From contig OZ025720.1 of the NCBI GenBank assembly GCA_964019335.1, positions 124,001 to 188,000 of the forward strand: a DNA stretch of 64,000 nucleotides. Direction: 5' to 3'. The notes under the pieces were generated by a model. That model was not told the origin of the DNA and ran no database searches. It saw only the letters and a list, made by a program, of their open reading frames with translations. The DNA comes from Diplonema japonicum. Taxonomy: Eukaryota > Protista > Euglenozoa: Diplonemea. How positions within the stretch are numbered: the first letter of the stretch is position 1; every line of letters starts with the position of its first letter. Position numbers and translations under genes: made by a program. Shown one piece after another: positions 18,715-64,000 of this stretch.

Positions 18715-20671
18715 TCATTCAAGTACGAGAAGGTCGATTTTCCCTTCCTTCCGTATGAGCACGAACCCGGCTGCGTTTTCATGACCCTTTTTTTTTTGTT
18801 TTTTTTTGCGTTCGGATGGAGAGATTCAAAGAAAACATCGACCCTTCTTGATGGCGCTTACGTAATACGGGCGGACTACCCTGGAGGTAAACCACTTCAA
18901 GAGACAATCTAGTGGACAGCAGCAATGAGACCTCAGATGGCGATGAACGTGATAATAGACAAAACAAATCATACTTCCCTGAAGACAACCGAAGCTTTCG
19001 AGGGTTTTCTTCCCGAAAAAAGCCCGCTTTTGACCGCCCTCCCACATCTACCGCTCAGCCCCTTGCACGCAAAGGGGGTCCATGCGAGACACGGCGTTAG
19101 TTGGGCGATGGTATGAGACGAGCGAACGACGCAAAGGAGAAGCACCCTTTCCACAGTTTCTTTCCTCTCCAGAAAAAAAAAGAAAAAAAGAAAATACCTG
19201 ATAATTCGAGCTGCTGAAAACAGTCACAACCCGGGAATTCTGCGAAATCTTCAAGCCCGCCGCTTTCTCCTCATGCCCCCTGATCATGATATCGTAACCG
19301 TGATTGTCCAAAAAGGTCGAAACAGCCTTCTCAGAGAAGGACGCGACAGTGCTGTCCCGGTCACTGCGGCCGAAGCTGCGTGGTGTTTCTTTCTTTTTTT
19401 TTTTTTTTTTTTTTTTTCTCGTACCCATAGACATCGAGAGGTTCTGTTTTCCCCTTCACGGGGTCCGACCACAGCAGATCGAAGTTTAGCAACCATTGCC
19501 GTTGCGCTTCTGTTTTCTCCTCTTTTGTTTGGCAGCCGTCGAGAATCGCCTCCACACGCGGCCCGAAGAGAGACGGGAACTTTATCCGTTTCGCCGGGTT
19601 TTTTAACGGCGCAAGACGATCGTCCTTTCCCGGGACAGCAGCACCCCAAAACCTCGGAACCCCGCCATGGACACAGAATACCTTACTGTCAACAGTAGCA
19701 CAGAGAGGAAGGTGCGTGAACAAATCGCAACACAACGAAAACAACTCTTTGCCGTTGCTGGACCCAAATTGCTCAGTACATTGCGCGGCTAAGGATTCAG
19801 ACCCGTACACGGGGATCTGCCCACATACCTCCGGGTCCTCATGGTTGCCTCGCAGCATGTAAACAGTGTCGGGAGCAAGCGCACGTAATGCAAGTAATTT
19901 CATCAATGTCTCCAGCCCGAATTTTCCACGATCGACATAGTCGCCGAGACACAGAATCTTCTCAGGGCAAAGCGCGACCTCGCCGAAAGGAAGAATCTTC
20001 TCCAGGAACCGGTCGAGATCTTTGTAGGAGCCGTGAAGGTCTCCAAGTACCCATACGTTGGGAGGGATATCGAGATGCGCAGCAGGATAAGCAGTATAGT
20101 TCCGAACAACGTGGTTTAAAACATCTTTAAAACACCGCAAGCGTACGGAAGGAGGGTGGGAAGCTGGGTACTCAAACGTGTCAGAACTACGTGAATAGGA
20201 CTTTTTGAACAAATCCAAAAGCTCGATCGCATACAGAGGCGACGAGACCGGTCCCACACCATGTTGTAGTTCTTGATACGACGCTGGTGTGATCACCGCG
20301 TCATATGTGAAGCAGTTGGAGGCAACCTGTGCTGACTTCTTAGAAGGCTTTGCCGGGTAATCGCTGCAGCATAGAACAGGAGTGTCCGCTTCTGCTTCAA
20401 CAACTTGTTTTCCAAAGGCCAGAACCTCTAGGATTCCTACCTGTTTCACCTTATCTGTGTCGGTGATGCGATACACAGTGGAAGGTGGTTTGAATCCGTC
20501 TGCTGCCGGGGATATTTTTCTCCTCTTTGCGTTGGTTTCATTTTCGGGGTTTTCGTAGCCTCTCTTGCCGTTTATAACACCATCTTCTGAGGTGTCCTCT
20601 GCCTCTTCTTCTCTATACGTTTCGGGGCAGTCTAGATCGAAGCCGTCAACGAAGTACTCAATCCCCGTCAT
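18715..20671 (-). CDS. PPP-family Ser/Thr protein phosphatase, 3 exons (20671-19425, 19375-19198, 18786-18715)
   Basis: GDLHG, GDYVDRG, RGNHE, HGG and DLLWSDP lie in exon 1. Removing GT-AG introns 19424-19376 and 19197-18787 restores YGFGRSDR...IRGHE...FSSSNYQGHENAAGFVLI...*, the canonical PPP C-terminus. Confidence 0.93.
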
Positions 20672-21070
20672 TCTTTTTTTTTCCCTCTTCCCCCGCCTCT
20701 TCTTCTCCTTTACCCCCCCCCCCCCTGCCCCTCCTATATTTTTGTGGAAGAATTCTTTTCTTTTTCTTTGAATAAAAATATCTTTTAATAAAATTCATTA
20801 TCTACGAGGGTGGGGAGGGGGGGCAGGTATATCAAAAAAAAAAAATAAATAAATAAAAAAAAATCTTTAACGCCGCATGTCACACAACCCGTATAACACC
20901 CTCTTGTGTGCTCTAAGATTTCTTTTTTTTTTTCCCCCGAGATTTTTCTAAAAGTTCTATAGACATCCCTTAGAAGCAAGTCTTTTAGTGATCTGGGGCG
21001 TAAAAATAGAACTCATAGTAAAAGACAATCCCACTGGAGGACAGCCTCTTGTGGTGTGAGTTCCTATCTA

Positions 21071-22253
21071 TTAATGCTCCCCTTCTGGAGCATAGCCTTC
21101 GTTCCTATTGTCGCCTTTAAAGCTTTTCGTAGTTCCGACACGCGTTCTTTCTTGTATGTCCCTTTCAACTCCTGCTGTCTGTCTTGATGCGAAGATCGGT
21201 CTCCTGTTAAAGCGTATTGCAGCCTTGCCTCCGATCGCTGTGAGCGACTTGACCCTCTTTGCCCCGTCCGCAGGGAAGGGGCGTCTTATCCGTCTCGTTC
21301 TGCACACTGCGTTGGCTCTCTCCACCAACAGCTTGATTCTGCGTGCCTTATGTTGTAGACTCCCAGTGACTTACCGGTTGTCTCCTCAAAGTCGAGTGCA
21401 AGTTCAGCTGCCGAAACCTCCGAGTCGGTGTCGCCCTCCACCCATCGCAGCTTTCCCATCCATTCCAGTAGTGGTTCCCCGAATTGCTCCAGCAGTCCCA
21501 CCACTGTCCCCAGCTGTGCTGTCGTCGGTACCGGGGTCACTTTGCCTGTCACTTCCCGCTCCCATGGTAGCTTCTTGTTGCCGCCTTGTGCCTGCATCAG
21601 CCCTTCGTCCCGCTTTTCCACCACCATTGCCAGGTATCGCTACTTCCACGCCCTTTCCTCCTTCTTCGTCGTCCTTGCTTTCCGTTGTGGTTTGCCGACC
21701 ACCGTCCACGCCTTCTTCTCCATCCGCTACGGGGACCCCTACTTTTGGGGGGGTGAAGTCCGTGGCTGTCACCCCTTTCAGTGCCGACGGTGTCCTCGGC
21801 TCGATGACGCCGTAGAAGGACTTCCCGTCGAAGGCGATGTGGACCGGCTTCTGTCCCTTCTTCGGTTTCCCAGGCACCGGTCTGTGCCTTCCTCAAGGAG
21901 CTTCGTGTACTCCTTGTCGTTGCCCCGCAGCTCCTGCACCATGAGGCGCCACACCTCATGTCCCTTCTTTCCCGCCTTCGACCCCGCCACCGCGTACAGC
22001 CCTCCGGCTCCTCCCTCCAGCCCCAGGCCGTACCCGCGTAACCCCGCCCGCAGTCTCTCCATGCTGGTCGTGCTGTGCTCTGCTTCCTTTTTTTTTTTTT
22101 TTTCACTTCTTGTCAACTTCAATGTCTTCTTTTACCCTCTTTTAGCTCTCTTTTCTGCGATCTGCTTTCTCAACTTCTTTCAATTTTCTTTCTTTACAAA
22201 CCGTATTACCTATTGACTTTATTGGCACGGTCGGACACCAATAAAGTACAGAA
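21071..22253 (-). mobile_element. Internally deleted, frameshifted non-LTR retroelement-like remnant
   Basis: GC-rich broken frames. OTU-like N-terminus (GGAGGLYAVA..HEVWRLMVQELRGN..EY...VHIAFDGKSFYGV) and a C-terminal LLEWMGKLRW..VSAAELALDFEETTG..RRPIFA block, which I recall from protist LINE-like ORF ends (unverified). No RT motifs are visible. Confidence 0.5.
22239..22253 (-). other. Spliced-leader relic (3' 15 nt)
   Basis: Minus strand TTCTGTACTTTATTG equals the 3' end of the Leishmania/Diplonema-type 39-nt SL exon. It lies ~176 nt upstream of the ATG at 22062. Confidence 0.6.
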
Positions 22254-22838
22254 TATAGAAAAGCATCATCCACCACTTCTCTCTTTCATTCTCTCTCCCC
22301 CCCTCCCTTTTTTTTGAGATAACAATTTCTGTTTTGTCACTACCTGAGAAAGGAAAAAAAAAAAAAAAACCTATTCGGTAACTTGCGCAGTTTTGGCATA
22401 ACCTCTTTATAAAAGGATTTTAAAAAAAACAGAAAAAAAAAAAAAAAGAGACATTTAAAATAAATTGCACACAAATAACGCAAATAGGGTTTTTTTCCTT
22501 TTTTTTTTAATTCCTTCTTCTTTTTTTTTTCTTCTTTTGTCCAAAAGAAAAAGAGGGGAAGAAGAAAAAAAGATTTTTAAAAAAAAGGGGGGAGGGAAGG
22601 GAGACAAAAGAAAAGGAGAGGGACAAACAAATAGGAAGAAAAAAAATGTACTTATTGCAATAAAAAAAAGGGGGGGCGAGAGAACAAAAAAAAAAAACAT
22701 AAGTAAAACATCCTCTTCTTTTTTTTTTCTTAGAGGTGGGGGAAAAGTGAAGAATGGGATCCACACACAAAGCAAAAAAAAAAAAAAAAAAAATCCCTTC
22801 CCAGGTTAATTCATCCCCCTCCCCCCTTTTTTTTTTCT

Positions 22839-25833: not shown

Positions 25834-25871
<38 letters not shown>

Positions 25872-25874
<3 letters not shown>

Positions 25875-28980: not shown

Positions 28981-29547
28981 TTAAACTTCTTTCAAGCAGT
29001 CAGGAGAGGTGTCTCCGGTGGCGATGCGCTGGAGGATGTCGTAAGTCCGGCCTTCCACGTATTCATGAAAGCTGACCCTCCCGTCACCGTGGTCATAGCA
29101 CATCACCGACTTCACCTCGGAGAGGAGTTCACGGGAGAAAGACGGGTCAGAAGTGTTGCAGGTTGTGGATTTTTCAAGCTTTTTTATTTTGTATCTTACG
29201 CACTCCATCAGGTCCACGAACCCGTCCTTGTTGGCGTCCATCGAGTTGAATTCCCTGACGAAGGTTGCTTCGACAAACTGGGTGAACTGTTGTAGCATGA
29301 TTTCCTCTGCACCGACGGTTCCGCCTCCTTCCTCGTTGTTTCCGTATAGCATAAAGCCTAGAAGGCGTCGTGCTGCTTCGACAGTTACCCCGCCCCCCCA
29401 CGCGCTTTGGGAGAAATACTTGTGGACTTCTTCCGCCTTCAGGAACAGGTTTTTGTCCCCCTGCCCCTCTGTGTTTCTCAGCCAGGATCTGAATACTATC
29501 TCTGTCGTCTTTCGATGATCGACAACATTTCCCAGTAATTGGCCCAT
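28981..29547 (-). CDS. EF-hand Ca2+-binding protein, possibly N-myristoylated
   Basis: Starts MGQLLG after an A-tract. EF loops DANKDGFVDLME and DHGDGRVSFHE. Confidence 0.85.
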   Translation of the reverse strand: MGQLLGNVVDHRKTTEIVFRSWLRNTEGQGDKNLFLKAEEVHKYFSQSAWGGGVTVEAARRLLGFMLYGNNEEGGGTVGAEEIMLQQFTQFVEATFVREFNSMDANKDGFVDLMECVRYKIKKLEKSTTCNTSDPSFSRELLSEVKSVMCYDHGDGRVSFHEYVEGRTYDILQRIATGDTSPDCLKEV

Positions 29548-30786
29548 TTTTTTTTCTTTTCTCTTTCCCCCCCCCCCCCCCCGGCGCGGACTATATATGG
29601 AGGGGGTTTTACGCCGCATAGGAGTGTCATTTGTTGACATTTTTTTCCGGACGAGCTCATATAAAAAAAAAAAAAAAGATGTCTTTAAAAAAGTGGGAAC
29701 AAAAGCTTTTTTTTTTTTTTTTTTCCCGGAGGTTGTTTCCTCTCCCCCTGGGGAAGAGGTGTGAGTTCCCGGAAAAAAAAAAAAAAAAGTAAAAAGAAAA
29801 GAAACTCTGGATGTGTATTTTTTTAAAACCACCCGTAATCTCAACGGAAAGGAAAAGGAAGGAGGAAAGACTAACTTGGTAGTTGTAGAAAATGAAAAAA
29901 GAAAATCAAGAAGAGTCGAACTCCAATGGTAGGTTGCACCCTTATTGTCGATGTCAAAATATTAAGGCCTTTCTTTTCTTCTTTCTTTCCTCTTCTGCAA
30001 ATAAATTATCCAGAGACGAAAATAAGCCTTGAAATAGATATTCACTTCTTCTTCTTTTTTTTTTTTTTTTTTCCTTCTCTTTTTTTTTTTCGCTTCCTCC
30101 TTTCATGGTTAACCGATCACGGGTTCTGAAACCCGACCCGGGCAATTTCAGATTCTTTTTAAGATCATAGCATGTTTTAGATATGTTCAAATCTTCAATT
30201 TAAAGCCATTGGTGACCTGGCAACTCCTTTCCCTCGAAAAAAAAGGGGGGGGGGATATACTGCTTTATGAGATATGAGGCGGAACAAACATGAGAATTAA
30301 AAGAATAGAACAAAAGTTGCATGAGAGGGCGGAAGCAGCCCCCTTTTTTTCTTTAGGAACAAAAAGGGTCACAAAGGCCTAAGAGCATTACAAAATAACT
30401 ATTTCGTTGAGGGGGGGGGATTGAAAAAAAGAGGGAGGGGGGGGGGGGGAACGCACAACTTACTGCTCAATGAGTAATAGAGTATATATAATAATAATAA
30501 AACCACCTTATTCACGCCCATGAAATTCTTTTCCCACTCTCTTGAAGTAAAAACAAAAAACAAAGACAAAAAAAAATCACTCGAGGCCTTAGGCTTCTAG
30601 TGATTTCTTTTTTATTTCTTTTTTTTTTTTTTTTTTACTGCACCGAAAACTTCATTCGTTGTGAATAAGTAGCGATTTTTTTTTTCCCTCCCTCTATCGC
30701 TCACTCTACCTGTGAGATTAAAAAAAAAAAAAAAAAAGAGAGTTGTTTCTCCACAATAAAAAAAAAAAAAAAAAAAAAGGAAATGT

Positions 30787-31491
30787 TCAACTTTGTTTAT
30801 AAGTCTCAACCAGAAGAACCAGCGAATCGTTCTGGGGAGGGGGATTTTTAATATACGTGTCACACGCTTTAAACGCAGAATCTAGCAGGTTGGGCACAAC
30901 GGTTGAAGTGAACCAGTTAAAGACAGAAGTGGGGATGTTCGCCTTCGGGTCGTCAAAATACACGGAGACATACTTGCACCAACCCTCACCCTTATCCGAC
31001 TTGGAAATTGTTGTGTTGTTGACAAAGGTCTCAACACGAACAGACTTGCCAGGGGGTTTTGTTGCGTGAGGGGCTGCCTTAGACACCGTGGCAAAAACAC
31101 CTTTTTCCACCCTATGCTCACGGTAGAACACATAATCGCGATTTGTGAAGGGCATAGGGCACGACACCTTCCAATACACCGCACAGTCCCTTTCCCCGTC
31201 GTACTCCTCGATGGTCTCGATCTCCTTGCAGTACCCGTCCCATTTTTTACGGAACTGGAGGTCGTTGTTCACGATGAAGAAGACCTCGGCGTCTACGTGG
31301 AGGTTCCCGATTGTCAGGTATTCCATGAGGCCCCCGTTCCCTTCTCTTGGTCGTCTGTAGACTGTGATCACGCTGCCGTTCTTCAGCGTGTAAGCCTTCA
31401 ACAGTGTCCACCCGTCATCCGTGGGGGAAATTTTTTCCAGCGTGAGCAGCCGGTCAAAATCGGCATCCGTGATCACAGGACCTTCGGACAT
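30787..31491 (-). CDS. START-domain lipid transfer protein (PCTP/STARD2-like)
   Basis: FRKKWD, YWKVSCPMPFTNRDYV, VRV, DDPKANIP. Confidence 0.92.
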   Translation of the reverse strand: MSEGPVITDADFDRLLTLEKISPTDDGWTLLKAYTLKNGSVITVYRRPREGNGGLMEYLTIGNLHVDAEVFFIVNNDLQFRKKWDGYCKEIETIEEYDGERDCAVYWKVSCPMPFTNRDYVFYREHRVEKGVFATVSKAAPHATKPPGKSVRVETFVNNTTISKSDKGEGWCKYVSVYFDDPKANIPTSVFNWFTSTVVPNLLDSAFKACDTYIKNPPPQNDSLVLLVETYKQS

Positions 31492-31563
31492 TTTTTTTTT
31501 TTTCTTCTTTTTTAAATTTCCCCCTTTATATAGAAACGTTTTGTCATGGTCCGATGGGACTCG

Positions 31564-31608
<45 letters not shown>

Positions 31609-31871
31609 AGTTTGATGAAAGAGAGAGAAGAAAAAAAAAAAAATGTGTGAGTTGAAAGGAGGTCATTGTGAGACGCCCCCTCTCCTCGTGGCTCTTTTTT
31701 TTTTTTTTTTTTTTTTTTCCCTCTCCCTTTTCTTCTTTTTTCCCCTCATCGGGTTTACCCAATAATAATAATAAACAAACTTTTTTTTTTTTGTTGCACA
31801 TTAATGTAGTAAGATGTTTAAACATACAAAAACAAACGTCCCCCGTCCCCCCCCTCCCCACCCATTCTTAC

Positions 31872-34517: not shown

Positions 34518-37063
34518 TTACATGGTAGGCAGTTTCGTGGCTAGAGAATCGACGCGGTGCTGTAGTTTTTCTTTCTTTTTTCTTTTTTTTTTTTTTTTTC
34601 CCTCCCAAAGAAAAATACCTTATAAGCAGATGGGTGCTGCTGGGTGGCAGGCTTAAGGGTGACTTTCATAGATGAATCGTGAATGCGCTTCATTACCTCT
34701 TTCTGAAGAGATTGTTCGAGAATGTCGAATTCAAGGAGGTGGGCGAGTTGCTGTTCTTCGCAGGACGAGAGTGTTGCCAGAATCTTGTCTTTGAGCTGCG
34801 TCGCGCGGTACCTCTCGGCAACGCCGAGAAGGGTGCAGAGGGCGCCGACGCCTTCTTCAGACATTTGAGACCAGATTTCCTTTTCGCACAATGTGCGCAG
34901 GAGAGGGAGTTTTAAAAGGTTTGCCGTCTCCATCACGCCAGCTGCTGTGGCAAGAGACACAATGCACTCCCCTGTGTACAGAAACACAAGTACAGCTTCG
35001 ACGCCTTGAGAGGAGACGTCCCGGAGTGTGACCTTCCGTATGCCGCCTTCGCTTCCAACTTCGATGCCTTCACTACCTTTTCCCTCGTTCACAGCCCGTC
35101 TGAGGACAGCACTCCCTGTTGACAGGACAGCACAGTGCGCCATCATGAAGCGAGCACCCACTGTAGACGTGCCAATGGTCACGTCGCATGCTACAGGCTT
35201 CACCCGCATCCTTGCCATGTCCGCGCATAACATGTTTCCTGCAACGTCCTCTGCGCTGGAGATTCTTTGCGTCAAGGGTTCCTTGCTAGGCGAACTGCCG
35301 CCCACCCTCCGGAGGTCTCTCCCAGGGCTCAACACGCTGTTTACGTGGTCCGCCAGCGCAGGGTACTTGAGATCCATCACAATCTGCGAAAACTCCTCCA
35401 AATGATCATAGTCCGCAAGCCTCCCTGAGTAGACAAACGACAGCAAGGACAAAAGCAAATCAGCGTCCGCGATACACGGCAGGCCTTTCCTTCGCTTATT
35501 ACCATCAAGCACGTATTCCGTACGGCTGCCCGTTGCACTGCCTTTGCACGACTCGAGGGAGGCGTACAGTTCAGGAGCACGCTCAAGGATGATGGAGGAG
35601 TGCGCGTAGCGTGTGCGCCCATTTACAACAAGCTGCATGTTGGCACCCCACTCAAGGGGGCGCTGTTGGGTGCGGCGAAGGAGTCTCTGCATGCTTGCTT
35701 GGATGGAGACGCCCTCGGCAACGATGTCGGACATGACGAGCATCGACAGCAGGTTGTTGGTGCTCTCGGAGGTTGTCACAAGCGATCCTCCGAACAGAAC
35801 AAGAGCACCGTTACGCATCGCACCGCCGCCCATGTGCGCCGTGCCGGCTTGTGTGAGGGCACCGTTCACGTGTATCGTGTTCCACTGATGGTGGTCGATG
35901 GTCGTGAACTGCAGCAATCTCGCAGCGTCCTTCGTCCCGCCGTAGATGAAGAGCAGCGGGCCTGCTTTCGTAGCGAGAGGTGCCATGAAGTGGCCATGAC
36001 GCGGGATGCCAACAATGGACAGCTCTGACCATGTCTGTGTGTCGATATCGTACTTCCACAAGTCATCGTAGACCGTGTTGGTGTCGCTGCCTCCGTGCAC
36101 GTACATCACAGTGCCCACCTTGCAGACTGCGTGCCCCGCACGCTTGGACGGCGGCTGGTTGGCTTCCTTGAGATGCCGCCATTTTTTATGGCGTGTGTCG
36201 AAGGTCCAGAGTTCGTTGGAGTAGCCCATTTTATGCTTCTTGCCCTCCGGTTTGTTGCACCGCCCGCCGAAGAGTAAAAGCCGTTTGTTGTGCGCGATGA
36301 CCGAGCACTCCGCACGCTCGGGAGGCGTACGCTTCTCGCTCTCATCGGGCTTGAGGTGCGTCCATTCTTGTGTGTCGGTGTTGTACTCGTGAACATCTGT
36401 TTTGAGCACACCGTCATGACACCCACCGTAGATGAATAGTGAGTCTGCTAAAGCCACCATGGATGCATTGTATCGTGGAGGTGGGGGTTCGCCTTTGGCT
36501 GCAAAGCATGGGTCCCATGCTGCCGACTCAAGGAGGTACTCGTGCAGGTCATTGCTGGTGTCGTGTTGGCCGTCTTTTCCGCAACGCAGCCCGCCAAACA
36601 CGTAAAGCGACCCGGACAGCGACGCGCAGGAGTGTCCCCACCGTTTCATTGGAATAACACCAGATTTTGGAGTGACGTTGGTGATGGTGACGAGCCCTCT
36701 TGGTTGGGGGTACGGGAATGGGGTTGTCTTATGTGGTGATGTTGTTTCTGGAGTGGGTTTGAGTTTTGGAAGGGCTTCCCTGTGGCTGCTCGACCAAGGG
36801 TCCATGCCACCGCTCCCAACTCCGATAGGGGCGATTTTTCTAGGCAAAGCACGTTTTACTGCGATTATCTGTTCGGATTCCGCATCAGGGTCGGGGTCGC
36901 CTGCGCTGTATGTTGAAAAAACGTTTGAGTCTCGTATCGCGGTTTCAAGCTTTTCTTTTTTTTTCGGCGGTGTCAGCGCGTTGCCCTCTAAATAGGCTTC
37001 CTTCGCTTTTTCTTTTTCCTGCACCTCAAATTCTTCAAGGAGTTGTACAATGTCTTCTTGCAT
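34518..37063 (-). CDS. Kelch-repeat plus tandem BTB protein (LZTR1-like); probable intron 34618-34560
   Basis: Six Kelch repeats (RWGH..YVFGG, RYNA..IYGG, RAGH..VHGG) and two BTB-like domains (YAHSSII, MAHCAVLS). Splicing GTATTT...CTACAG gives the tail HRVDSLATKLPTM*. Confidence 0.9.
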
Positions 37064-37515
37064 CTTTTTTTTTTTTCTTTTTTGCCGCCCCTCGACTTTT
37101 GTTTAAAGGGTGAATAAAGCAAGGGAAAAAAAAAAAAGAAGGGGGGGAAAAAAAACAGGGAGATGGAGAGGGGCAGTGGTGGTGGTAATTCGGGGAAGGG
37201 GATTAGATAGAAAAAAAAAAAAGACTTTATTTTTTTTCTTCTTGGAGAAATGGTGGGGGCGGGGGGGGGGGGGGGGACAGAATATCTTTTTTCTTTTTGA
37301 CACATAAATAAAGAATAAAAAAAGGGAATCACAAAAATGAGCTCGTCCGGGAAAATAATGTCCACAAATAACCTTAAAATCCCTATAAAAGCAAACTTTT
37401 TTCAATTGAAAGAACGGGCGCCCTTTTTGCTCAAATAATCGAAACAAAAAAATATTGGACATTCTAATGCGGCCGAGCTCATATATAGAATGGGGTGTGT
37501 TTTCTTCCCCCTTCT

Positions 37516-39804: not shown

Positions 39805-42800
39805 CTAAGCTGCTTCGTTTTTGAGACCTGTGTTTTTTTTTTTTTTGTTCTTCTTTTTTTTCTTTTTTTATTTTCCTTTATTTTACTCCTCCCTGCATAC
39901 GACATGGAGTCTCCCCTGTGCCGCGCGGGACCAGACTTACCAGAAAATGAATTTCTGTGAGAGTTCCGGGTTGATTCCTGGGGTTTTTTTTTTTTTTTCC
40001 TGCTACTTCCCCCCCCCCCCCCCCCCCCCCCCCCGTACCGCTTGAGGCATGAATGTAGGGGTGGCGGGGAGCACGGGAAGGTCATCGGAAGCCAGGCTTT
40101 GCCGGTGTGCCATCTTCCTGACAATCTGACCAGCCGAGGACTGCGGAGGGTTTTGTTCAGACACAAGCAGGATTCTCTTAACAGCATCAGACTTCCGTCT
40201 AGACTCCTCAGCCTTGTGGTCCCGCTGCGTCTTGCCTTCCCCTCCAGCCCCTCCCCCCTCATTCAGCGTTTTGGCAACAGTCGCGAAAAAGTTTTCGTCA
40301 GCAGCTTTTTTCATATCGTCCTCTATAACCTCACGCTCCAGTTCAATAAGGTATTTCTCACGCTTTGCCGCCTCTGCTTTGCTTAAAGACCGGGTTTGTT
40401 TCACGATTCTAGCGAGTTCTGTTTGAAGCCACTGAGTGGCGTCGTTGATGTCTTCTCGTTCCATTGCCTCGCCATCCATGAGGACAGTCCGTTCGTTGAT
40501 TTCCTGTTGCTCCAAAGCTACAAGCTGCCCCCACCTCACCTCAGACTGATTCGCGATGGGACGAACAGGCCTATAAGTCTTAGGGACCTTCAACCCTGCC
40601 AAGGTACCTCCGATGACAACATCACCAGTCTGTGCAGTACGGTGCATAGTAAGACGCAGGGTGTACTCCTCATGGAGGATGTTGTACCTCCCCCACAGCT
40701 CGTTTTTATCGAGAAGCTCGTGTTTGAAGATGTTGCTAGCGGCGTACTGGTGCATTATTTTAATCTGCCCGCCGATGCCTTCTAAGAGTAGCGCATTCAT
40801 GCTTTCCCATGTTTCGACGCACCCTCTTGTCATCAACTGGACCTTGTTGAAACAATCAGGTACCTCGCGGAAGAACGCCATGCACTGCTTCGGGTCAACG
40901 GGGGTGGTCAGTGTCTTGCTCAACGACGATAGCAATCGTTGCCACAGGAATTGTCGGTCTTCGACTTCCCATTCTTCCAGGTTGACCCTTTCGGTAGCTT
41001 GGTGTTCCGACACCACTCGTTGTTCCTCTGTTCTGTTATATGACAGCCGTTGTTCCCATTCATCGGACTCCTCTTTTTTAAGAGAAGTGAGCGCTGAGCT
41101 TTGCATTGCGAACAGCGAGAAGAGAATCTCTTGTCTTTTACGGATGTAGAAGCCTTTCCACAGTCTTTGAACGATGATGGTTGAAAGGTGTTTTGTTTCA
41201 TCTGTTGGGTCGACCAGCTTGCTCGATATCAGTTTTATCCTTGCCTTGTTGACTGTCTGTAAGATGTTCGCCCTCGCCGCTTTGTTCATTTTGTGGAAGT
41301 CTCTGAGACACCCTGTGAAGCTGAGGCACACCCCTAACGTTGCGTTCTTGACACCGGTGTCCAGCAACGGTTTGTTCATCCCTTTCGCAGCCTGCAGGGC
41401 TTGGACTGCCCGTAGTGTAGTGCACTTAACACGGACAACCTGCGCACAACGTACCACTGTAACCTCCTTTATATCTGTATCGTGTTTGATGCCAGCCCAT
41501 TCCTTTAAAGCGTCACGCCACGTGTGTAAACCTTGTGCTGGGTTTAAAATTGAATCCGATACGTAGAGAGACACGTCCATGGTTAAGGACAGTGCGACTA
41601 GCTGTATTTGCCTCACGTAGTCTTCACAGTGGGCTTGGCTTGATCGGTAAACCAGTTTGTACAGTTCGCGGAGGAGGTGGGTTTTTAATGTGGATTCATT
41701 GTGTTTTTCCAATGGAATTTCTGCGGTGGTGAGCCATCTGCATTTGTGCCATCTTGCCAGGCCTTGGAATGCCTTGTGTTGCTTGCGCAGTGCGCTGACG
41801 GCTTCTTTGTCGAAGATTATTCGGTTTCCGGGGGTGAGGTGGTTTGCTTCGGTGTGGACGGTTATCTTCTGCTTCAGAAGCCTGTCGCTGATGTACGCGT
41901 TCACGGCGCACGTTGTGATGGTCGATCCGCGGCCCTTCCCAGCCTTGCCCTGCAAGGCCTTCACGAAATAATATGTCAGCAACCCGCCTTCTTGGTTGCT
42001 TGGGTACTGCGCGTCTAATTCTCCCGCTACACTCTCAAACCCTCCGATGAACCCTATGCCAGGCTGGCCTTTGATGGATTGAATCCCTCCGCGGAGTGTC
42101 CATAAATCGCCTACCACAAGGGGCTTTCTTCCAAAGCAGTCGCGGAGTTGCATCAACGATGCTAAAGGGATGATGCCCGAATGTTTTCTGTCGTTCGCGT
42201 AGCTTGCTTCTTGAGTGAACGCGAAGCGTGAGTTGTAACCCGTGTCGAGGAAGGTGAGAACCCCCTCGACACCCCGTGCCATGACGACGACAAGGACGGG
42301 CGGTGTCCGTTCTAGAAGCGCCTCTTCCTTTTCTTCGACGATGTTTGAGGTGTTGCTCTCAACGCGTCTTGCGTTGGCGAGCGCAGTGTCGAGTACGCGA
42401 ATGAAGTTACTCCGTGTGGGGTGCATGAAGGTGTCGTGAGCATTGTCGCTGAGAAGATCCACGGAGTACCTCCCGTCGGTCAGGACTGTCACAAGCTGCT
42501 TTTCATCGATGCGTGAGGTTGGGATGTCCGGCAGTGCGGGGTCGTTGTACTTCCCCACGGAGAGGACCACCGCGTGGAACGGCTGCTGCCGCCTCCCCTT
42601 CACGTACCTCGCCCACCCTTCGTCCTCCAGAAGCGGGTCGGACTCCTTGTTGTACGCCACCAAATCCTTTGCCGCGCTGCCTTCGTCGATGTCGTGCCAC
42701 AGCCTGCGGCTCACTGGCTTCGCAAGGAAATGGTTTCCGTGCCGCGAGAACCCAACGTTTGCCTTTTTGCGCCAATCCTTCGACTTCAAGAACGTCACCG

Positions 42801-51928: not shown

Positions 51929-52766
51929 TTACTTCTTTGCTGCGGTTTTCACGCTGGAGCTGGGCTTTCTTTTAAGCAAGGTTTTCTTTCCACCCGCTTT
52001 CTGCAAATTTCTTTTTTCTTTCTTCCCCCACCCTCCTTCATACCAATGCTGTTTTCGAGGGCTTCCTCAACGTGGGTTTAGATTCATCATGCTCCGGTTC
52101 GGTAGAAGGCTCGGGTGTTGCGGGAACAGGGCTAGGCTCCACAGAGGTCTCCACCTCACTGACAGGCTTTTCGGGCACTGGGAGAGAAGGGGCTTCAGCA
52201 ACGGGAACGGGTTCCGGAGAGGCCTCCTTTATTTCTTCTTTTGGTTCGGGCAGAGGAGGGAGAATTTCTTTTTCCATTTCTTTTGCTTCGACAACCGGCT
52301 TCGCAACTGGTTTTAACTGCACCTCAACTTCACCTAAGGTCAGCTGGGTCCCTTCAGTTGGAGGCCTTATCTGAAGGGCTTCCCGGACCTCTGCCACTGT
52401 AGTGACCCGCCTTCCATTCACTGCATCAACCTTGAGACCCTTCGGGGCGCTAGGATGATCGGAGTCAACTACCAATCTTCTACCTTTACCGTCTACCTTT
52501 TCCAGCAGTTTTACACTATCTTCCTCACCCACTGTGATAGCTTCCATGACTGATTCCACCTCTGCCTTTATATTGTTACCTTTGCTGAAGCAGCTTCTGG
52601 GGTGCGAAAAAAAAATCTTTTTTAAAAATATTTTTTCATACTTCAATGCCAAGCCACCCAACAGCAAGCTCACGGATGCCACTCCTGCCGCGATTTCCTT
52701 GTTGTCCTTTGCTAGCTTCACTACCTTCTCCATCGCCTGTTCAAGGGCTTGCTGTTGATTTGTCAT
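51929..52766 (-). CDS. Single-TM protein with PDZ-like fragment and P/E-rich tail; introns 52641-52597 and 52043-52001
   Basis: TM segment IAAGVASVSLLLGGLAL; GLKVDAVNGRRVTTVAEV. Two GTATGA...CAG introns; the second restores the tail KAGGKKTLLKRKPSSSVKTAAKK*. Confidence 0.8.
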
Positions 52767-54565: not shown

Positions 54566-54610
54566 CTTTGTAGCGGCAGCAGCAGCTGGTATTTTTTTTT
54601 TTCTTTCTCC

Positions 54611-55399
54611 TTACGTTGTCTTCTCCCGCCCCTCATAAAACAAAGAAGAGATGATGCTCAACAGTGTTGGTTTTTCCTTTCCGTTCCTTTGCTTTCCCTG
54701 CAAAGGCGGCCCCAACAAGCTCTCCTCAAGCAAACTCTCCACAGGCTTAAGAGGAATGGTGCTGAAAGATGTAGCAGTTGCACCATCACAGTCAGGATAC
54801 CGCAGCCAGAGGTCAGGGTTTGGTATCAACCGGTGAGCAGTCATGGAGGGGAACCAAGTATGGATGAAGTACTGAGCGGAAGGCGGCACAGCATCAACGA
54901 ACGATGTGGAAGCTGATTTCTGTGGCTCAAGATCCGCAGGCAAAGCTTTGCGGTAACAACCGTCCAGACACGCTATGTGATAAACATGGCTGAAGGCATA
55001 GACAACTCCTAAAACATCGAGTTTATTGTGGTAAACTATGGTACCAATGTTCAAATCGAGGTGCTGTGGTCTGGGGACCTCAGTTTTGCACTTTTCGATG
55101 AGCTTTGTCAGGTCTTTGCCCAGCCTCAGGGCTTCGAACGCCTTCATCTCGTCGTTCTCTTCGCTGCGGAACGATTTTTTTACGTAGCCTACGAGACCGC
55201 CTTCCGTTTGTAAAGCGTTTTTCAGGTCGCTGAGCACCTCTCGCTTGGTGTCGACCTTCTGCTCCTTTCGCAACGCCGCCCTCACCACCAACCGATCCAA
55301 CTCCCGCATATCCCGGGACCCCCCCAGACTCTCAAAATCACTTTGCAACCCTTGACAGCTCCGTAGCAACCTGGCGTATAACCGCAGTTGAACTGACAT
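54611..55399 (-). CDS. Hypothetical protein with LYR-like N-terminus and YccV/HspQ-like domain
   Basis: LRLYARLLRSC; IGTIVYHNKLDVLGVV...YHI...LIPNPDLWLRYPD. Confidence 0.7.
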   Translation of the reverse strand: MSVQLRLYARLLRSCQGLQSDFESLGGSRDMRELDRLVVRAALRKEQKVDTKREVLSDLKNALQTEGGLVGYVKKSFRSEENDEMKAFEALRLGKDLTKLIEKCKTEVPRPQHLDLNIGTIVYHNKLDVLGVVYAFSHVYHIACLDGCYRKALPADLEPQKSASTSFVDAVPPSAQYFIHTWFPSMTAHRLIPNPDLWLRYPDCDGATATSFSTIPLKPVESLLEESLLGPPLQGKQRNGKEKPTLLSIISSLFYEGREKTT

Positions 55400-55587
55400 T
55401 TTTTTTTTTTTTTTTTTCTTTCTTCCCCCTCCCGCTCACCCCGCCTTTATATTGATGGGAATAAAAAAAAAATTTTTTTTTTAGGGGTTCGAAAAAAAAA
55501 AAAATTCTTTTTTTTCTTGATTTTTTTTTTTTTTTTTTGATGAAAACTTTACCCCGGTTTTTTTTTTTTTTTTTTTTTCCCTCCCAT

Positions 55588-56569
55588 TCACCTTTTTTTA
55601 TAAACACAGGGTGACAGGTAGCTTGATGCGTCCCTCGGCACCCTGTCTCTGGTGTCGTCCTCGACCGACCATTCCTTTGTCGCGTCAATGAGGATGAAAT
55701 GTGTGTTTGAAGAATTCGGCTTTCCGGCTTTGAAGCCCAACGCAGACAGCAGGTGAAGAAATCGATGGACGTCGCTTTGAAAGCGAGATGTCACCTCGGC
55801 AATCTTGAGCGAGCCGCCTGGGACGAGCACACGGTTGGCTTCCTTTAGAATCTCGATCCAGTTGGTCCCCATCAACGCGAGCGAAATCACAACAAAATCG
55901 ACAGAACAGGAGGGAAGGGGCACCTTTTTGGTTATATCACATGAAACGATGTGGGATGCCTTTGACACAAGGTCGAAGGAGTGAACCTCAATGTTAGAAT
56001 TGCGTAGATTGTAGGCGAGCAGGCCATCCCCGCACCCAAGGTCAGCACAGACTACTCGTTTCGACTTGCTTCCCTTTGCTTTCAGCCAATTTGTAATCAC
56101 TGTTAAAGGGTTTGCCGGCCATTTCTCAACTTGTTCCCTGTACCCCTCGTGGTAAGCCTCGAACAGACCCGGGTCATCGTTAAACATCCCGCTGCTGTCC
56201 TCCGACGTGCCAGTGTACATTTTTTCATTGAGCCATCTGAATTTTCCGGATTTAAGCTGTGCCTCTAGTTTTCCTAGTGTCGATGACGCCACTTTATGCG
56301 GTTTTGCCTTCACAGTGTTCTCTGGCTTGGTAGGTGCGTCCGGGTACACGCGGGTCAAACTCTTCTGTTTCTTGGCCTGGGGTTCCCTTTCCTCTCGTTT
56401 TTGCGTTGTGGGGGTCTCCTTGGGGGTGTCCTCTTTAGGGGACGTCTCGTTTTTCTGTTCTTCTGTCGCCGGGCCCTCCACCAGCACCGCCAACGCTCGT
56501 TTCGGCTTCTTCTTTCTATTCCTCGGGTCGGGGCATAAGACTATGGTTTCCCTCACTATTTTGTTCTCC

Positions 56570-56571
<2 letters not shown>
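55588..56571 (-). CDS. RRP8: Ribosomal RNA-processing protein 8 (25S rRNA m1A methyltransferase)
   Basis: GKFRWLNEKMYT, YHEGYREQVEKWPANP, ADLGCGDG, HSFDL, LALMGTN, EANRVL, IAEVTSRF and terminal PCVYKKR. Confidence 0.96.
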
Positions 56572-56601
<30 letters not shown>

Positions 56602-56685
56602 AAAGTGTTTCTTCTTCCCCCCGCCCCCTTTTCCTTTTATCTCTTTCCCCCCCTTTTTTTTCTTTTGTCCATTATATTATCGGGG

Positions 56686-57097
56686 TGGCCCTGGTGAAAG
56701 TACTACAGCGACCGCACGGAACCTGGGACTACAACATTATTCTTCTTTTTTTTTCTTTTTTGCGTGGACCTGACACCGACGCGGGGAAAGAAATATGCTG
56801 TACGAACAACGTATTCGGCAAGGCGGTGGGCAAGGCGGAGAGAATACAACAAATCCGCCCTCACCACTACTCTATCCTGCCACCCCAAAATATTATTCCA
56901 CTCCTCCCTTGACCCCGATCGAGTGATTGCGAGATCCCAGCAAGGAACGTGCCCAGACTACCAGAAAGACGCGAGGAACCACAGCCACGACAGGACGGCA
57001 CTGAGGACCAGAACCACCACCTCGACGCGATGAACCCTCCAAGAGGGCCCGGGCATGTCGGGTGAGTCACGACACCCCCCGGTAACACAGTGAAGCT
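56686..57097 (+). other. GC-rich antisense island, possible retroposon relic
   Basis: Complex sequence starting (gg)ccctgg, with short broken plus-strand frames. No diagnostic motif. Confidence 0.25.
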
Positions 57098-57329
57098 TGA
57101 TTTCAATTAGCTTCTACCTTTTTACTTCTTACGTAATCCGTTTTGTAGTTTCCAACAGTCTTTTCCGTTCCTTTACCTCACCTGTTCTCCCTTCCCAGCC
57201 GGTTTTGATTTCTTCGTATTCTTTCAGAGTTGGAACAAATCGAAATCAAAAAAGAAAATGGGGGGGGGGGGGAATATTTGAACAAAAAGAAAAAAACGTT
57301 CTCACGGAAGTGGGATGTATCGCTCACCC

Positions 57330-59258
57330 TTATTTTTTCTTCTGTTTAAGCAACCTCCCGATGCCACCAAGCTTCCTCATCTTCGAAATTTTCGCCCGCA
57401 TCGGTGTGCGAGGGCTTTGCGGAAGGGGCTGTTCTGGCTTCAAGCCAGATTCAGAGCCTATGACAACCGTGGTAGGAGAAATAGAGATACGCCTGAACGA
57501 GGCACGGAAAGACGAAGGAGCGGAAGGGCAAAGGGACACCGGGCTTGAAGGGCCGGAAAGGGTTCCGACGGAACTATCGGTGTCTGAAGACCAGTCGGTC
57601 GCGAAATTACTGATTGAATTACGTTGGGGTGCCCAGTTCCCAGCGAGGATCATGCCTGTGAGGTCTCGGAGGCTAGTGTCGGGCTTTCTGCCGCCCCGTC
57701 GCCAGTTCAAGAAATTACTGGCATATTGTTGGTCCTTTTTGTCACGAAGGCCTTTCTGTACCCTGCTGGAGTAGGTATCGATTCTGTCACAACCCGAAAA
57801 AAAACTCCCGACACGATCCCTCCTTCGCGGTGACGTGAAACCCTCGTTGTCGATCGTCGGTAGAAAACCATTTCTCCGGTTTCTAAGAACCTTCTCAACC
57901 CCGTTGAACTCCTGTACACTGCTGTGTAGTATCTCACGGAAGTGCAATGTGGTGTCGTATACGGGGTTCTTCAATTTTTTCTCGCGGATGTCGGTCCGGA
58001 ACTCCTTTCTGCGGTGGACCAGAACGTCGCGTAGAACCCCTGCTTTGAAGCTTTTTGACGATTGTATTTTTTCGAGCTGCAGGATGGCGATCTCGACCAT
58101 CGTGGGGTCGTTCAGCTTGGTGCCGAACGCGATCTCCTCGTTGAGCGTGGCCACGCTGTCGGCTTGCCACTCGTTCCACTCCTTTATAACCATGAGAATT
58201 TGCCGTTTAACGACTGCCTGGATGCGTCTTATAAAACATTGTATTCTTATTGTCGCCCGTCGGAACATTTTTACAATCGCGTAGAACTGCTGGCTTTTGT
58301 TCAGTTCGGAGAGCAGTTTTTTAACCTGCGTGGTGGCGGTGACGAGCCTTCCCATTGATACCGAGCCGAAGACTGTTCGGAAGGCAGCGGGGCAGCTTGA
58401 CAGCCCGACGAGATCGTCCGCGGAACGAGGAGCTTGTTGCCCTGGCTGCGTTTTAAAGGTGTAGGTTTCCAAAGGTATCAACCTAATCAGTTTCAAATCG
58501 GAGTCTGTTCTGTGGAAATACTGTGCAGTCAATGATTTGTAAATATCGGTGCAGCAGAACATGACAACATCTTCGTCGGAAGCATACTGGACCGGATTGT
58601 TATTGAACGGGTGGCACTGCAGCTGGTAGTCCCCGTTCAGGTACAGCATCCTGCCGGAGAACGAAATCTCAGAGGAGCTCAACGTCACCAGCGAACGGTC
58701 GTTCGGAACTGTGAACCACGGTGGGGAATCGAACCTCGACAGTGCGGAAGGATCGGACAATACACTGTGGACCCTTTCCCAGATCGCTGGGGTGATGAAC
58801 GCCTTTGAGAACAGCGGGGAATGTATCGGGTTCGATGAAGTGTCCCAAGAGGATATCCATTCTGTTACGTCCTCCAGCCCCACCATGGCGGAGTAGTTGG
58901 TGGGCTTTAAATTGTGGTAGTCTAGTAGGCCCAGATCGTGGTTGTTCACTTTGAGCCATTCTAGGATTTTAAGGTGTCCTCCTGCTGCTGCGAAGTGTGC
59001 TGCAGTGCAGCCGTCTTTGTCGCGTATATTTGCTTTGCCGTTGTGGAGTTGCATCCACTTCAGAACCTCCAGGTGTCCTCCTTGAGCTCCTAGGTGCCAC
59101 GCGGTTTGAGCGGTGGCTTGGTCGGTGATGGTGTCGACTGCGGGCCTCCCGCATCTTTCCCAGCTCTCCTGCATGGCGGGGTTGTTGCCTTGCTCTGCCG
59201 CGGCGAGAAATTCCTCCCACAGGCTGCATGCTTGCTGCGCTTCGGGGGGTCTTGCCAT
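57330..59258 (-). CDS. Ankyrin-repeat protein with IQ-like motif
   Basis: TAWHLGAQGGHLEVLKW and TAAHFAAAGGHLKILEWL; ATIRIQCFIRR. Confidence 0.88.
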   Translation of the reverse strand: MARPPEAQQACSLWEEFLAAAEQGNNPAMQESWERCGRPAVDTITDQATAQTAWHLGAQGGHLEVLKWMQLHNGKANIRDKDGCTAAHFAAAGGHLKILEWLKVNNHDLGLLDYHNLKPTNYSAMVGLEDVTEWISSWDTSSNPIHSPLFSKAFITPAIWERVHSVLSDPSALSRFDSPPWFTVPNDRSLVTLSSSEISFSGRMLYLNGDYQLQCHPFNNNPVQYASDEDVVMFCCTDIYKSLTAQYFHRTDSDLKLIRLIPLETYTFKTQPGQQAPRSADDLVGLSSCPAAFRTVFGSVSMGRLVTATTQVKKLLSELNKSQQFYAIVKMFRRATIRIQCFIRRIQAVVKRQILMVIKEWNEWQADSVATLNEEIAFGTKLNDPTMVEIAILQLEKIQSSKSFKAGVLRDVLVHRRKEFRTDIREKKLKNPVYDTTLHFREILHSSVQEFNGVEKVLRNRRNGFLPTIDNEGFTSPRRRDRVGSFFSGCDRIDTYSSRVQKGLRDKKDQQYASNFLNWRRGGRKPDTSLRDLTGMILAGNWAPQRNSISNFATDWSSDTDSSVGTLSGPSSPVSLCPSAPSSFRASFRRISISPTTVVIGSESGLKPEQPLPQSPRTPMRAKISKMRKLGGIGRLLKQKKK

Positions 59259-59893
59259 ATATTTCTTCTCCCCCCCCCCCCCCTCTTTTCTTCCCGTTTG
59301 TTTGCTTTTGTTTTACATCTGCAAAAATAAAAGAGAAGGAAATAAACAAAGGTGAGGGGGGGGGGGGGGGGGGGGTGAAGTTGGCAATAAAATAAATAAA
59401 ACAAAGGAATAACGGTGTGTGTGCGTGTGGAAGGGGAGGGGGGGGGGGGATGGGCCAAATGAGACCGGTTCACGAAGAATTTCAATTAAAAAAAAAATCC
59501 ACTCAAAAAACAAAAAAAAAAACAAAAAAAGCACATCTGATATCTGGGGAGTGCTCGCATTTAGGCGAGTCACATGGCATGGAGTCGTACTAGGTGGATC
59601 TTATGCGGATTGTGGACTTTGTCATTCCCTCCGAGGCATAGAGTGCTTGGGGGAAAGAGGGATTCATGTATTGAACAAGGGTGAAAGAAAAAAAAAACAA
59701 ACTGGACCGGCATAAATGAGGTACTTTCCAGGGGTCCTACACCATATCACCAGCCTCATCACTGATATATTTTCTTTTCATTGCGTTTGATCTTTCTTCT
59801 TTCTTTTTTTTGTTTTCGGTTTTTTTTTTTTTTTCCCTTTTTTCTAGTTGCTTGACTCACCCGATATGGGGACCGGACGGAGGAGTGTGTTTT

Positions 59894-59924
<31 letters not shown>

Positions 59925-60132: not shown

Positions 60133-60163
<31 letters not shown>

Positions 60164-60979: not shown

Positions 60980-61259
60980 AGCACGAACTACCTACTTGAT
61001 TACAGGGGGCGCACCTCGGCCGAGCAGTGCTTCTTCTGCGTTCCGCGTCGTGTCCTTAATGCGTGCGGTGTGCTCAACCCTAGCCGGGGCGTCCGGGTAA
61101 CCAAGATTCTGCGCTCGTGCAGTTTGCTGCCTGTTCGTCACCCTGAGCATCTGCGTTACGTTCTTCCACTCGGGCGCTACCGGTGATGACCGACGAGGAG
61201 GTCAACAGCGAACAGCACATCTGATGTACTTCTTATATTTCCATGTTATCCCCACCACC
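60980..61259. repeat. Dispersed repeat family, copy 3
   Basis: Aligns with 3101-3376 and 480-633. Confidence 0.9.
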
Positions 61260-61530
61260 TTATTAAAAAAAAAAAAAAAAAAAAAAAACGCCATTGCACA
61301 TATCATCGTTTCCATAGTATTCTTTTTCTTCGTTTTCTAACCCTGCTTTGGTAGCACCGTAAAAACTTTTTTGTCTCGTGGCGCAGAGAGGATCCCAAGT
61401 GCGCTCGAACAGCTAATCTCTTTTGGAAAAAGAAGAATAAAAAAAAAAAGAAGAAAAAAAAAAAAACCTTTGTGGACATTTTTACAGCTGACGAGCTCAA
61501 ATCTATTTAGTGAACACGAACAAGAAAAAG

Positions 61531-61581
<51 letters not shown>

Positions 61582-62491: not shown

Positions 62492-62520
<29 letters not shown>

Positions 62521-62524
<4 letters not shown>

Positions 62525-62576
62525 TCATCATCTACCACACCTTCCTCGCCCTCTGGGATGTATAGGAACGATTGTA

Positions 62577-62618
<42 letters not shown>

Positions 62619-64000
62619 CCTCTCCAAATCCCCTCCCCCACATACCAGCCCCTTTCCTTTCAACATAGTTTTCCCCCGGGAAACAAAAGGAAGCGACGGC
62701 AACCGGTACCTCGTTTCATGAGACACCTGAATGGTGCCTATCGGCGCAGAGGTGCTGAACCTCGCCGCGATGTTGACACTGTCCCCAAAGATGTCGTAAG
62801 CAAAATTCGAGGTACCAAGTAACCCAGCAGACAGCTTACCAGTGTGCACCCCAGCACGAGTAGGCACCTTGCCATATGGGAACGATGAGGCCACCTGAAG
62901 CGCTGAGATGCAGAACTCAGTCACCTGTTGTGCGTGGTTCACCGCTGTAGGCGACGTGCAACCGCTGACCACCACATAAGGTATGTTTTTAAGCTTTACA
63001 ACGTCAGGTGTCTTCATCAGCAAGTCATCGACCACCCTGAGCAAGCTGTTCAGTCTATCTACTAAGTCCGACGGGCTTGCCTGACTGTCATTCGTCACGG
63101 ATACCACGTCCTGGAACTGAATGAACCCCACCGTCGCAGAGTCCACGTTGTGGACAACACTCTTCTCCCCCCTCCCTAGCTGTTGAAGGACCTCGGGGGG
63201 TATGCTGTTCAGCAGCATTCTTTCAGCGGTGTTGACCGACTTGTCGATGGCGTCTCGTTCTATCAGAATTCGTTGCTCTTCTAACCAAGCAGAGCGTGAG
63301 GACCGTTCGTTGGCCAATGATGCAAGCACACCGGAACCTTCCAATAAGAGGAAGGCTATCGCGGGCATCACGATGTTTGTCCTGTCCTGCTCGATGTAGA
63401 AGACCAATGCGTGTGCTACTACCGTCGCTGAGATCCCTGCAACCTTGACCGTGACACAGAGTGTCGGGTGCAGCCCTAGGAGGAGTGCCACCTGTGCGGC
63501 GATGCCGATGTTGCCAGCAGTCTCATCGACGACGATGTACTTGTACAGCCCGCAAGAGACGCCTGAGTAGATAGAAAGCACCCATGCGTAGAACAGCAAG
63601 GTGTGCCGGAGGGAGGCCTTCAAGGCCCACGGTATTGCCAGCATCGCGACGCATCCCACCATCACCCACACGATCCACAAGCCTTCGTGTTCGATTCTCA
63701 TCGCCACACACCCGGCTGTCACCGCTATGCCTCCTGCAACAAGGGAACAATACGCCTGGGGAGGGGGGTTTGTTTTTTTTTGTTTCGACATACTGCGAAA
63801 GTACCAAACTGCACCTCCATAGTGTCTCTGTAGCGCCGCTCTGTTACTTCGCAGCTGAAACTCACACCGGATTGTTGCAACGAAAGCGGTTCGTGTTCAT
63901 CTGGGGATATTGTAAAAAAAAAAATAAAAAAAAAATTAAAAAAGCATACAAAGCTTATCCCGCAAAGAACCGTCCAAGTTCCGAAACGTGCTGCGAGAGA
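62521..64000 (-). CDS. Membrane adenylyl cyclase-like protein, 5' end outside the window; introns 63949-63901, 63793-63756, 62645-62578
   Basis: Multi-TM block, then AERMLLNSIPPEV, RAGVHTG, YDIFGDSVNIAAR and KGKG. Removing three GTATG..AG introns gives one open frame to the window edge and the tail KGKGLVQSFLYIPEGEEGVVDDE*. Confidence 0.88.

What the first reader, a model, noticed from the sequence alone, without database searches (positions are those of the whole stretch)
18787..63949. Cis-introns use A/purine tracts instead of polypyrimidine tracts before the 3' AG: a possible cis-versus-trans acceptor code
Seen: 10 reconstructable GT-AG introns on the minus strand: 19424-19376, 19197-18787, 34618-34560, 40038-39978, 39940-39828, 52641-52597, 52043-52001, 62645-62578, 63793-63756, 63949-63901. 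Eight have A- or purine-rich 3' regions, e.g. A30+AG at 62578, CAAAAAAAAAAAG at 18787 and GAAAAACTACAG at 34560; two (52597, 63901) are U-rich. The PPP and cyclase introns are well anchored because removing them restores conserved motifs. In contrast, likely trans-splice acceptors upstream of genes (e.g. 2816-2860, 37096-37150) carry U/C tracts. Known: the polypyrimidine tract binds U2AF65 and is the main SL trans-splicing signal in euglenozoans. Inference: cis acceptors may avoid pyrimidine tracts so that SL is not added mid-gene, which would imply a different 3' splice-site recognition mode.
Basis: partly seen in the sequence, partly recalled or inferred. Interest (0 to 1): 0.8.

Follow-up and report, generated by a model that had tools for sequence, protein, structure and literature searches.

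The report
A-rich intron ends in Diplonema japonicum
In the marine flagellate Diplonema japonicum many introns end in a run of A's where other eukaryotes have a U/C-rich tract, a trait already published for this species; whether it also keeps the spliced leader off the middle of genes is still untested.

Summary
The window is from Diplonema japonicum. Two transcriptome-derived proteins of that species are reproduced exactly (498/498 and 1603/1603 residues) once four introns are removed, so four acceptors are confirmed. One donor needs correcting (39900, not 39940). A fifth intron restores a cyclase motif; five remain unconfirmed. The A-richness is real: 7 of 10 acceptors have at least 50% A in the 20 nt before the AG (pooled 0.62; non-coding DNA 0.30), and the four confirmed ones hold no U in 80 nt. 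It is also known: Thakur et al. 2025 (RNA) report A as the commonest base of this tract in about 10,000 D. japonicum introns, with U2AF1/2 present. The cis-versus-trans code could not be tested: no spliced-leader site was mapped. The DNA before start codons runs U/C-rich, then A-rich, so most genes offer either kind of AG, and U/C-tract AGs are hardly commoner there than elsewhere (14 of 16 versus 72%). A small new point: the 411-nt intron passes 19 AGs, some pyrimidine-rich, for the A-tract AG, so the tract may be a positive signal.

The parts
19376..19424 (-). Intron 1 of the PPP-type phosphatase gene, 49 nt, GTACG..A-tract..CAG
   Evidence: Confirmed: needed for identity with D. japonicum protein P0121; A 0.60, U 0 in last 20 nt
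18787..19197 (-). Intron 2 of the phosphatase gene, 411 nt; U tract plus AG near the donor, A tract before the used AAG
   Evidence: Confirmed by P0121, 498/498; passes 19 AGs at 38 nt or more from the donor
34560..34618 (-). Candidate intron near the end of the kelch-BTB gene, 59 nt, A-rich end
   Evidence: GT..CAG in sequence; unspliced product not in the collection; not confirmed
39978..40038 (-). Intron 1 of the 1603-aa gene, 61 nt, G run then A run then CCCCAG
   Evidence: Confirmed by P0218
39828..39900 (-). Intron 2 of the 1603-aa gene, 73 nt; donor corrected from 39940 to 39900
   Evidence: The one tested two-intron model giving 1603/1603 identity with P0218
52597..52641 (-). Candidate intron, 45 nt, in frame and stop-free, U/C-rich end
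   Evidence: Sequence only; the frame does not need it; not confirmed
52001..52043 (-). Candidate intron, 43 nt, purine-rich
   Evidence: Sequence; unspliced product not in the collection; not confirmed
62578..62645 (-). Last intron of the cyclase gene, 68 nt, long A run ending in AG
   Evidence: Removal restores the cyclase C-terminal motif seen in P0210-P0212; exact acceptor not transcript-confirmed
63756..63793 (-). Candidate cyclase intron, 38 nt, A run then C tract
   Evidence: Removal opens the frame to the window end; not confirmed
63901..63949 (-). Candidate cyclase intron, 49 nt, U-rich; could instead be a trans acceptor, since the gene start is not in view
   Evidence: GTATG donor; an open frame exists without it; not confirmed
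2816..2860 (-). Possible trans acceptor of the carotenoid oxygenase gene (U/C tract, CAG 25 nt before ATG)
   Evidence: Sequence only; six A-rich AGs compete within 150 nt
37064..37150 (-). Region before the kelch-BTB ATG: U/C tract, AAG at 37096, then an A-tract AG directly before the ATG
   Evidence: Sequence only; acceptor undecided

Best explanation
These are ordinary GT-AG introns of Diplonema japonicum, most of which end in an A tract instead of a pyrimidine tract, and the A tract likely serves as the branch-point region that marks the acceptor, with little need for a U-rich tract. Shown: the introns (four against transcript-derived proteins), the A enrichment, and that a 411-nt intron passes pyrimidine-preceded AGs for the A-tract AG. 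From print: GTATG donors, CAG ends, median 41 nt, a full U2-type spliceosome with U2AF1/2. Inferred: the strong donor and short length define the intron, SF1/U2 pick an A in the unstructured tract, the first suitable (C)AG behind it is used, and slippage-prone homopolymer runs set the tract lengths. Cis versus trans is then likely decided mainly by the presence of a nearby donor, with U-tract strength at most a bias and not a two-letter code.
For: Exact protein matches. A 0.62 vs 0.30 background; no U in 80 nt of the four confirmed acceptors. In 19197-18787, 19 AGs are passed, 5 of them YAG and 4 with pyrimidine 0.65 or more; highest A among them 0.5, used site 0.9; in 40038-39978 a CAG after a G run is passed. 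In 39900-39828 three A-rich AAGs are passed for a CAG, so tract and YAG both count. Eight of 10 end in CAG; YTRAY lies near the acceptor in 1 of 10; four introns fold to 0.0 kcal/mol. PMC12621601: A most abundant in the tract, YTRAY in 13.9% of introns, U2AF present. PMC9639853: in T. brucei any A upstream of the tract can be the branch, no consensus. PMC11170887: Euglena uses the same C-rich tract for cis and trans acceptors.
Against: No branch point was mapped and no U2AF or SF1 sequence examined. The skipped-AG argument rests mostly on one intron and one assembled isoform. The complete lack of U in confirmed acceptors and the raised pyrimidine zone at -61..-160 of start codons fit active U avoidance as well. 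In S. mansoni SL does reach intron acceptors despite upstream donors, more so with longer pyrimidine tracts (PMC5832876), so a donor alone does not always protect.
Confidence: 0.5

Rival explanations
1. Cis-versus-trans acceptor code: U/C tracts call SL addition and upstream polyadenylation, so cis acceptors were selected to avoid them and use A tracts, read by a different factor or mode.
For: No U in 80 nt of confirmed cis acceptors; pyrimidines 0.63 vs 0.51 at -61..-160 of ATGs, p=0.013, about where a 70-nt 5' UTR as in P. papillatum would put the acceptor (PMC10161547); in T. brucei U tracts drive trans-splicing and purine insertions harm it (PMC9639853); S. mansoni introns that get SL have longer tracts (PMC5832876).
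Against: No SL site known. Pyrimidine-tract AGs near ATGs 14 of 16 vs 661 of 919 controls, p=0.13. Two genes lack one within 150 nt. Three of 10 candidate cis acceptors are pyrimidine-rich (all unconfirmed). A confirmed intron holds a U tract plus AG. Related diplonemids combine trans-splicing with C-rich cis tracts (PMC12621601), and Euglena uses one tract for both (PMC11170887).
Confidence: 0.25
2. One A-rich signal for both reactions: SL is added at the A-rich AGs close to the start codon, and the U tracts further upstream serve 3' end formation of the previous gene or act from a distance.
For: A is 0.67 at -1..-20 and 0.52 at -21..-40 of 16 start codons (0.59 vs 0.29 in controls); 14 of 16 genes have an A-rich AG within 150 nt; some introns show the same U-then-A order as the intergenic DNA; for three genes (START1, Rrp8, ankyrin) an upstream ATG lies between the pyrimidine-richest AG and the start codon.
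Against: A-rich 5' UTRs would give the same profile; most of these AGs are AAG or GAG, not YAG; no SL data.
Confidence: 0.15
3. No signal: the 3' tract is free filler, and A runs reflect homopolymer slippage in this genome's non-coding DNA.
For: 45 long single-base runs in 64 kb; G and U runs fill other parts of the same introns.
Against: Sense-strand non-coding DNA has A 0.30 and T 0.31, with no A bias to inherit; the skipped AGs; the published logo over 10,131 introns.
Confidence: 0.1

Closest known systems
A-rich 'PPT' of Diplonema japonicum introns (Thakur et al. 2025, RNA; PMC12621601)
   Same: Same species, same trait: A most abundant in the 20 nt before the acceptor, GTATG donors, CAG ends, short introns, U2AF1/2 present.
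   Different: The text has no comparison with SL acceptors ('spliced leader' and 'outron' occur 0 times) and proposes no mechanism beyond a flexible spliceosome. Figures and supplements were not visible to me.
C-rich tract of Euglena gracilis introns and outrons (Gao et al. 2024; PMC11170887)
   Same: A euglenozoan with both reactions and a non-U tract; the cis-versus-outron comparison was made there.
   Different: Tract is C, not A, and cis and trans acceptors were alike.
Cis/trans competition at intron acceptors in Schistosoma mansoni (PMC5832876)
   Same: Asks how SL is kept from, or reaches, internal acceptors; longer pyrimidine tracts go with SL use.
   Different: A graded U-tract effect in an animal; no A tract.
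Trypanosoma brucei polypyrimidine-tract-driven trans-splicing (PMC9639853)
   Same: Source of the premise that U tracts drive SL addition and upstream polyadenylation; branch at any A.
   Different: Trypanosomes have three cis introns at most, and these carry pyrimidine tracts (PMC11613528).

Membership tests
U2-type (major) spliceosomal introns | GT..AG ends | tested here: met
   10 of 10
U2-type (major) spliceosomal introns | Removed from the mRNA | tested here: met
   4 of 10 by exact match to transcript-derived proteins; 1 by motif; 5 not confirmed
U2-type (major) spliceosomal introns | Donor close to the species consensus GTATG | tested here: met
   GTATG 6, GTACG 2, GTATT 2 after correcting one donor
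U2-type (major) spliceosomal introns | Polypyrimidine tract before the AG | tested here: not met
   7 of 10 have 0.25 pyrimidine or less; a common but not universal feature
U2-type (major) spliceosomal introns | Branch-point adenosine and lariat | not testable with these tools
   YTRAY near the acceptor in 1 of 10; no lariat reads
Non-canonical structured introns of hemistasiids and euglenids | Non-GT-AG ends that pair with each other | tested here: not met
   Canonical ends; the nine short introns fold at 0 to -6.3 kcal/mol
Published D. japonicum A-rich acceptors | Species is D. japonicum | tested here: met
   100% identity to EP01064 Diplonema japonicum proteins
Published D. japonicum A-rich acceptors | A is the most abundant base in the 20 nt before the acceptor | tested here: met
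   Pooled A 0.62, C 0.195, T 0.125, G 0.06
Cis-versus-trans acceptor code (proposed) | Mapped SL acceptors are U/C-rich | tested here: inconclusive
   No SL junction seen; sequence profile fits either placement
Cis-versus-trans acceptor code (proposed) | U-rich cis acceptors receive SL more often | not testable with these tools
   Needs raw RNA reads

The most novel reading that the evidence does not exclude
D. japonicum runs two acceptor grammars on one spliceosome: an A tract positively marks cis acceptors while U/C tracts are kept for spliced-leader addition and coupled polyadenylation, which would be a sequence-level answer to how an intron-rich, polycistronic eukaryote keeps the leader out of gene bodies and would imply an A-reading U2AF2, SF1 or partner.
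Probability: 0.25. Interest if true: 0.72.

Novelty: already known. Interest (0 to 1): 0.36.

Why it matters
The confirmed part is a published oddity: an intron-rich eukaryote whose acceptors lack the tract that U2AF2 normally binds. The open part touches an old question, how organisms with both reactions sort cis from trans acceptors. D. japonicum is a good place to ask, because its cis tract is so unlike the trypanosome trans signal, and existing RNA reads would settle it in a day. If SL sites prove U/C-rich, this would be a clean natural separation of the two signals; if they prove A-rich, trans-splicing itself has left the polypyrimidine rule in this species.

Tried and rejected
No whole genome is held, so no genome-wide logos or U2AF/SF1 search. 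Sequencing runs: no RNA holder listed. One stretch could be laid, 54600-59500 with runs X5-X8: all contigs, none on record as RNA; the A-rich stretches right before two start codons were skipped as repeats; no SL-like loose end among the 22 shown (43 not shown, 13 dropped in X8); the stretch holds no intron. From record lengths, one X8 contig would end where an SL junction at the TAG at 56703, which has no pyrimidine tract, predicts; 9% of nearby positions would fit as well (15 of 164), a poly(A) end explains it too, and the letters were not seen, so I do not count it. The cyclase search found no D. japonicum protein (8 distant hits, 250-795 aa only). Both tried starts of the EF-hand gene were absent from the collection, so it was left out of the start-codon counts, as were the unclear frames at 22112 and 25335 and the cyclase (start not in view). 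The donor 39940 was rejected. Pairing of intron ends as the mechanism was rejected. Four stop positions in my coding mask were off by a few bases (one search check), which blurs the after-stop profile; I drew nothing from it. Literature searches for a cis/trans acceptor comparison in diplonemids found none; the library lacks most subscription papers, the supplements of PMC12621601 could not be read, and Additional file 1 of PMC10161547 (intron and UTR sections) was too large; either may hold SL-site logos. The scan's earlier notes held nothing on this.
Full report
Organism. All long frames lie on the minus strand amid homopolymer-rich DNA. The carotenoid oxygenase at 1207-2790 has its nearest relatives in Diplonema ambulator (77%) and Flectonema neradi (64%). 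The phosphatase and the long gene match EukProt proteins labelled Diplonema japonicum at 100%.

Are the introns real? All ten stretches start GT and end AG. Removing 19424-19376 and 19197-18787 gives a protein identical to the Trinity-derived P0121 over 498 of 498 residues; one or no removal gives 475 or 416. The acceptor stands and the donor moves to a GTATG. Removing 62645-62578 turns a lysine-run tail into KGKGLVQSFLY, in line with KGKGEIDMYFV and KGKGEMQTWFL of distant cyclases. The remaining five are unconfirmed. Unspliced products of the kelch gene and the 52766 gene are not in the collection while 4 of 4 intronless neighbours are, which does not say which intron is used. 52641-52597 is in frame and not needed; 63949-63901 is not needed for an open frame either and could be a trans acceptor.

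Is the A-richness more than background? In the 20 nt before the AG the pooled make-up is A 0.62, C 0.195, T 0.125, G 0.06; sense-strand non-coding DNA (30,165 nt) has A 0.30 and T 0.31. Seven of 10 acceptors have A of 0.5 or more, against 26% of 1,688 non-coding AGs and 11% of 497 YAGs (p=0.003 and 0.0002). The four confirmed acceptors contain no T in 80 nt. 63756 is C-rich at its end, so the split is 7 to 3, not 8 to 2.

Is the A tract a signal? In the confirmed 411-nt intron 19 AGs lie 38 nt or more from the donor and are passed; 5 are YAG, 4 have 0.65 or more pyrimidine, none has more than 0.5 A, and the used AAG has 0.9. In 40038-39978 a CAG behind a G run is passed. In 39900-39828 three A-rich AAGs are passed for a CAG, so an A tract alone does not fix the site. 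This points to a positive role, on one informative intron and single assembled isoforms.

What is in print. Thakur et al. 2025 (PMC12621601; I read parts 1-4 of 8: abstract, introduction, results, discussion, start of methods, plus a term search; no figures or supplements) mapped RNA reads for six diplonemids. [quoted passage not shown] The core observation is therefore known. The text makes no comparison with SL acceptors.

The cis-versus-trans contrast. That nearly all mRNAs are SL trans-spliced is carried over from P. papillatum (PMC10161547, passages: 5' UTRs about 70 nt). Before 16 start codons the DNA is A-rich close in (0.67 at -1..-20, 0.52 at -21..-40) and T-rich further out (0.46 at -61..-80). 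Pyrimidines at -61..-160 exceed controls (0.63 vs 0.51, p=0.013) and A at -1..-40 does so far more (0.59 vs 0.29). Nine of 16 genes have a pyrimidine-rich AG within 150 nt, 14 an A-rich one, 7 both. A looser test finds a tract-plus-AG for 14 of 16 genes but also for 661 of 919 control positions (p=0.13); the calcium-channel and Rrp8 genes have none, though their UTRs may be longer. Choosing trans acceptors by their U tract is thus circular. The one read-laying that ran showed no SL junction and cannot decide.

Outside evidence cuts both ways (all read as passages). For: T. brucei trans-splicing needs a U tract of 9 or more, is harmed by purines and dictates upstream polyadenylation (PMC9639853); S. 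mansoni introns that receive SL have longer tracts, and upstream donors do not always prevent it (PMC5832876). Against: E. gracilis has the same C-rich tract at cis acceptors and outrons (PMC11170887); the few kinetoplastid cis introns all carry pyrimidine tracts (PMC11613528); other diplonemids manage both reactions with C-rich cis tracts; and the confirmed 411-nt intron has a near-pure U tract with AGs 31-33 nt behind its donor.

Mechanism. I commit, at about even odds, to short introns defined by a strong donor, an unstructured A tract that supplies the branch region, and a preferred CAG, with U-tract binding by U2AF2 relaxed; donor presence would do most of the cis/trans sorting. The branch role, the relaxed U2AF2 need and the sorting rule are inferred. 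The code (0.25), a shared A signal for both reactions (0.15) and neutral filler (0.1) are the rivals.

Verdict. Observation mostly confirmed with one donor and one count corrected; main trait already known; the new hypothesis is neither shown nor excluded, was not found in nine searches, and is cheap to test. Interest 0.36.

Noticed in passing
window 22237-22252 (-): Exact 16-base match to the 3' end of a euglenozoan spliced-leader exon plus GT (0 of 100 shuffles match). The motif was recalled; its first 14 bases match the partial B. nonstop leader printed in PMC12153298. It forms one arm of a hairpin (z -1.3) and lies just before an unclear frame at 22112-21404. No Rfam hit; perhaps a leader remnant at a decayed element.
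   Followed up: partly
window 645-758 (-): A lone 5S rRNA gene inside the protein-coding array.
   Followed up: no
window 480-638, 3110-3387, 60993-61272 (-): Three copies of a 150-280 nt dispersed repeat, 90-95% alike; one starts right behind the 5S gene, one right at a stop codon.
   Followed up: no
window 30787-33470 (-): Tandem START-domain paralogues, 69% alike in DNA over 580 nt.
   Followed up: no
16 start codons across the window: The 20 nt before the ATG are 67% A although coding DNA is near 50% G+C: a strong A-rich start context or A-rich trans acceptor.
   Followed up: partly
window 28981-29640 (-): EF-hand frame; neither of two tried starts is in the protein collection, so its start or an intron may be unrecognised.
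   Followed up: partly
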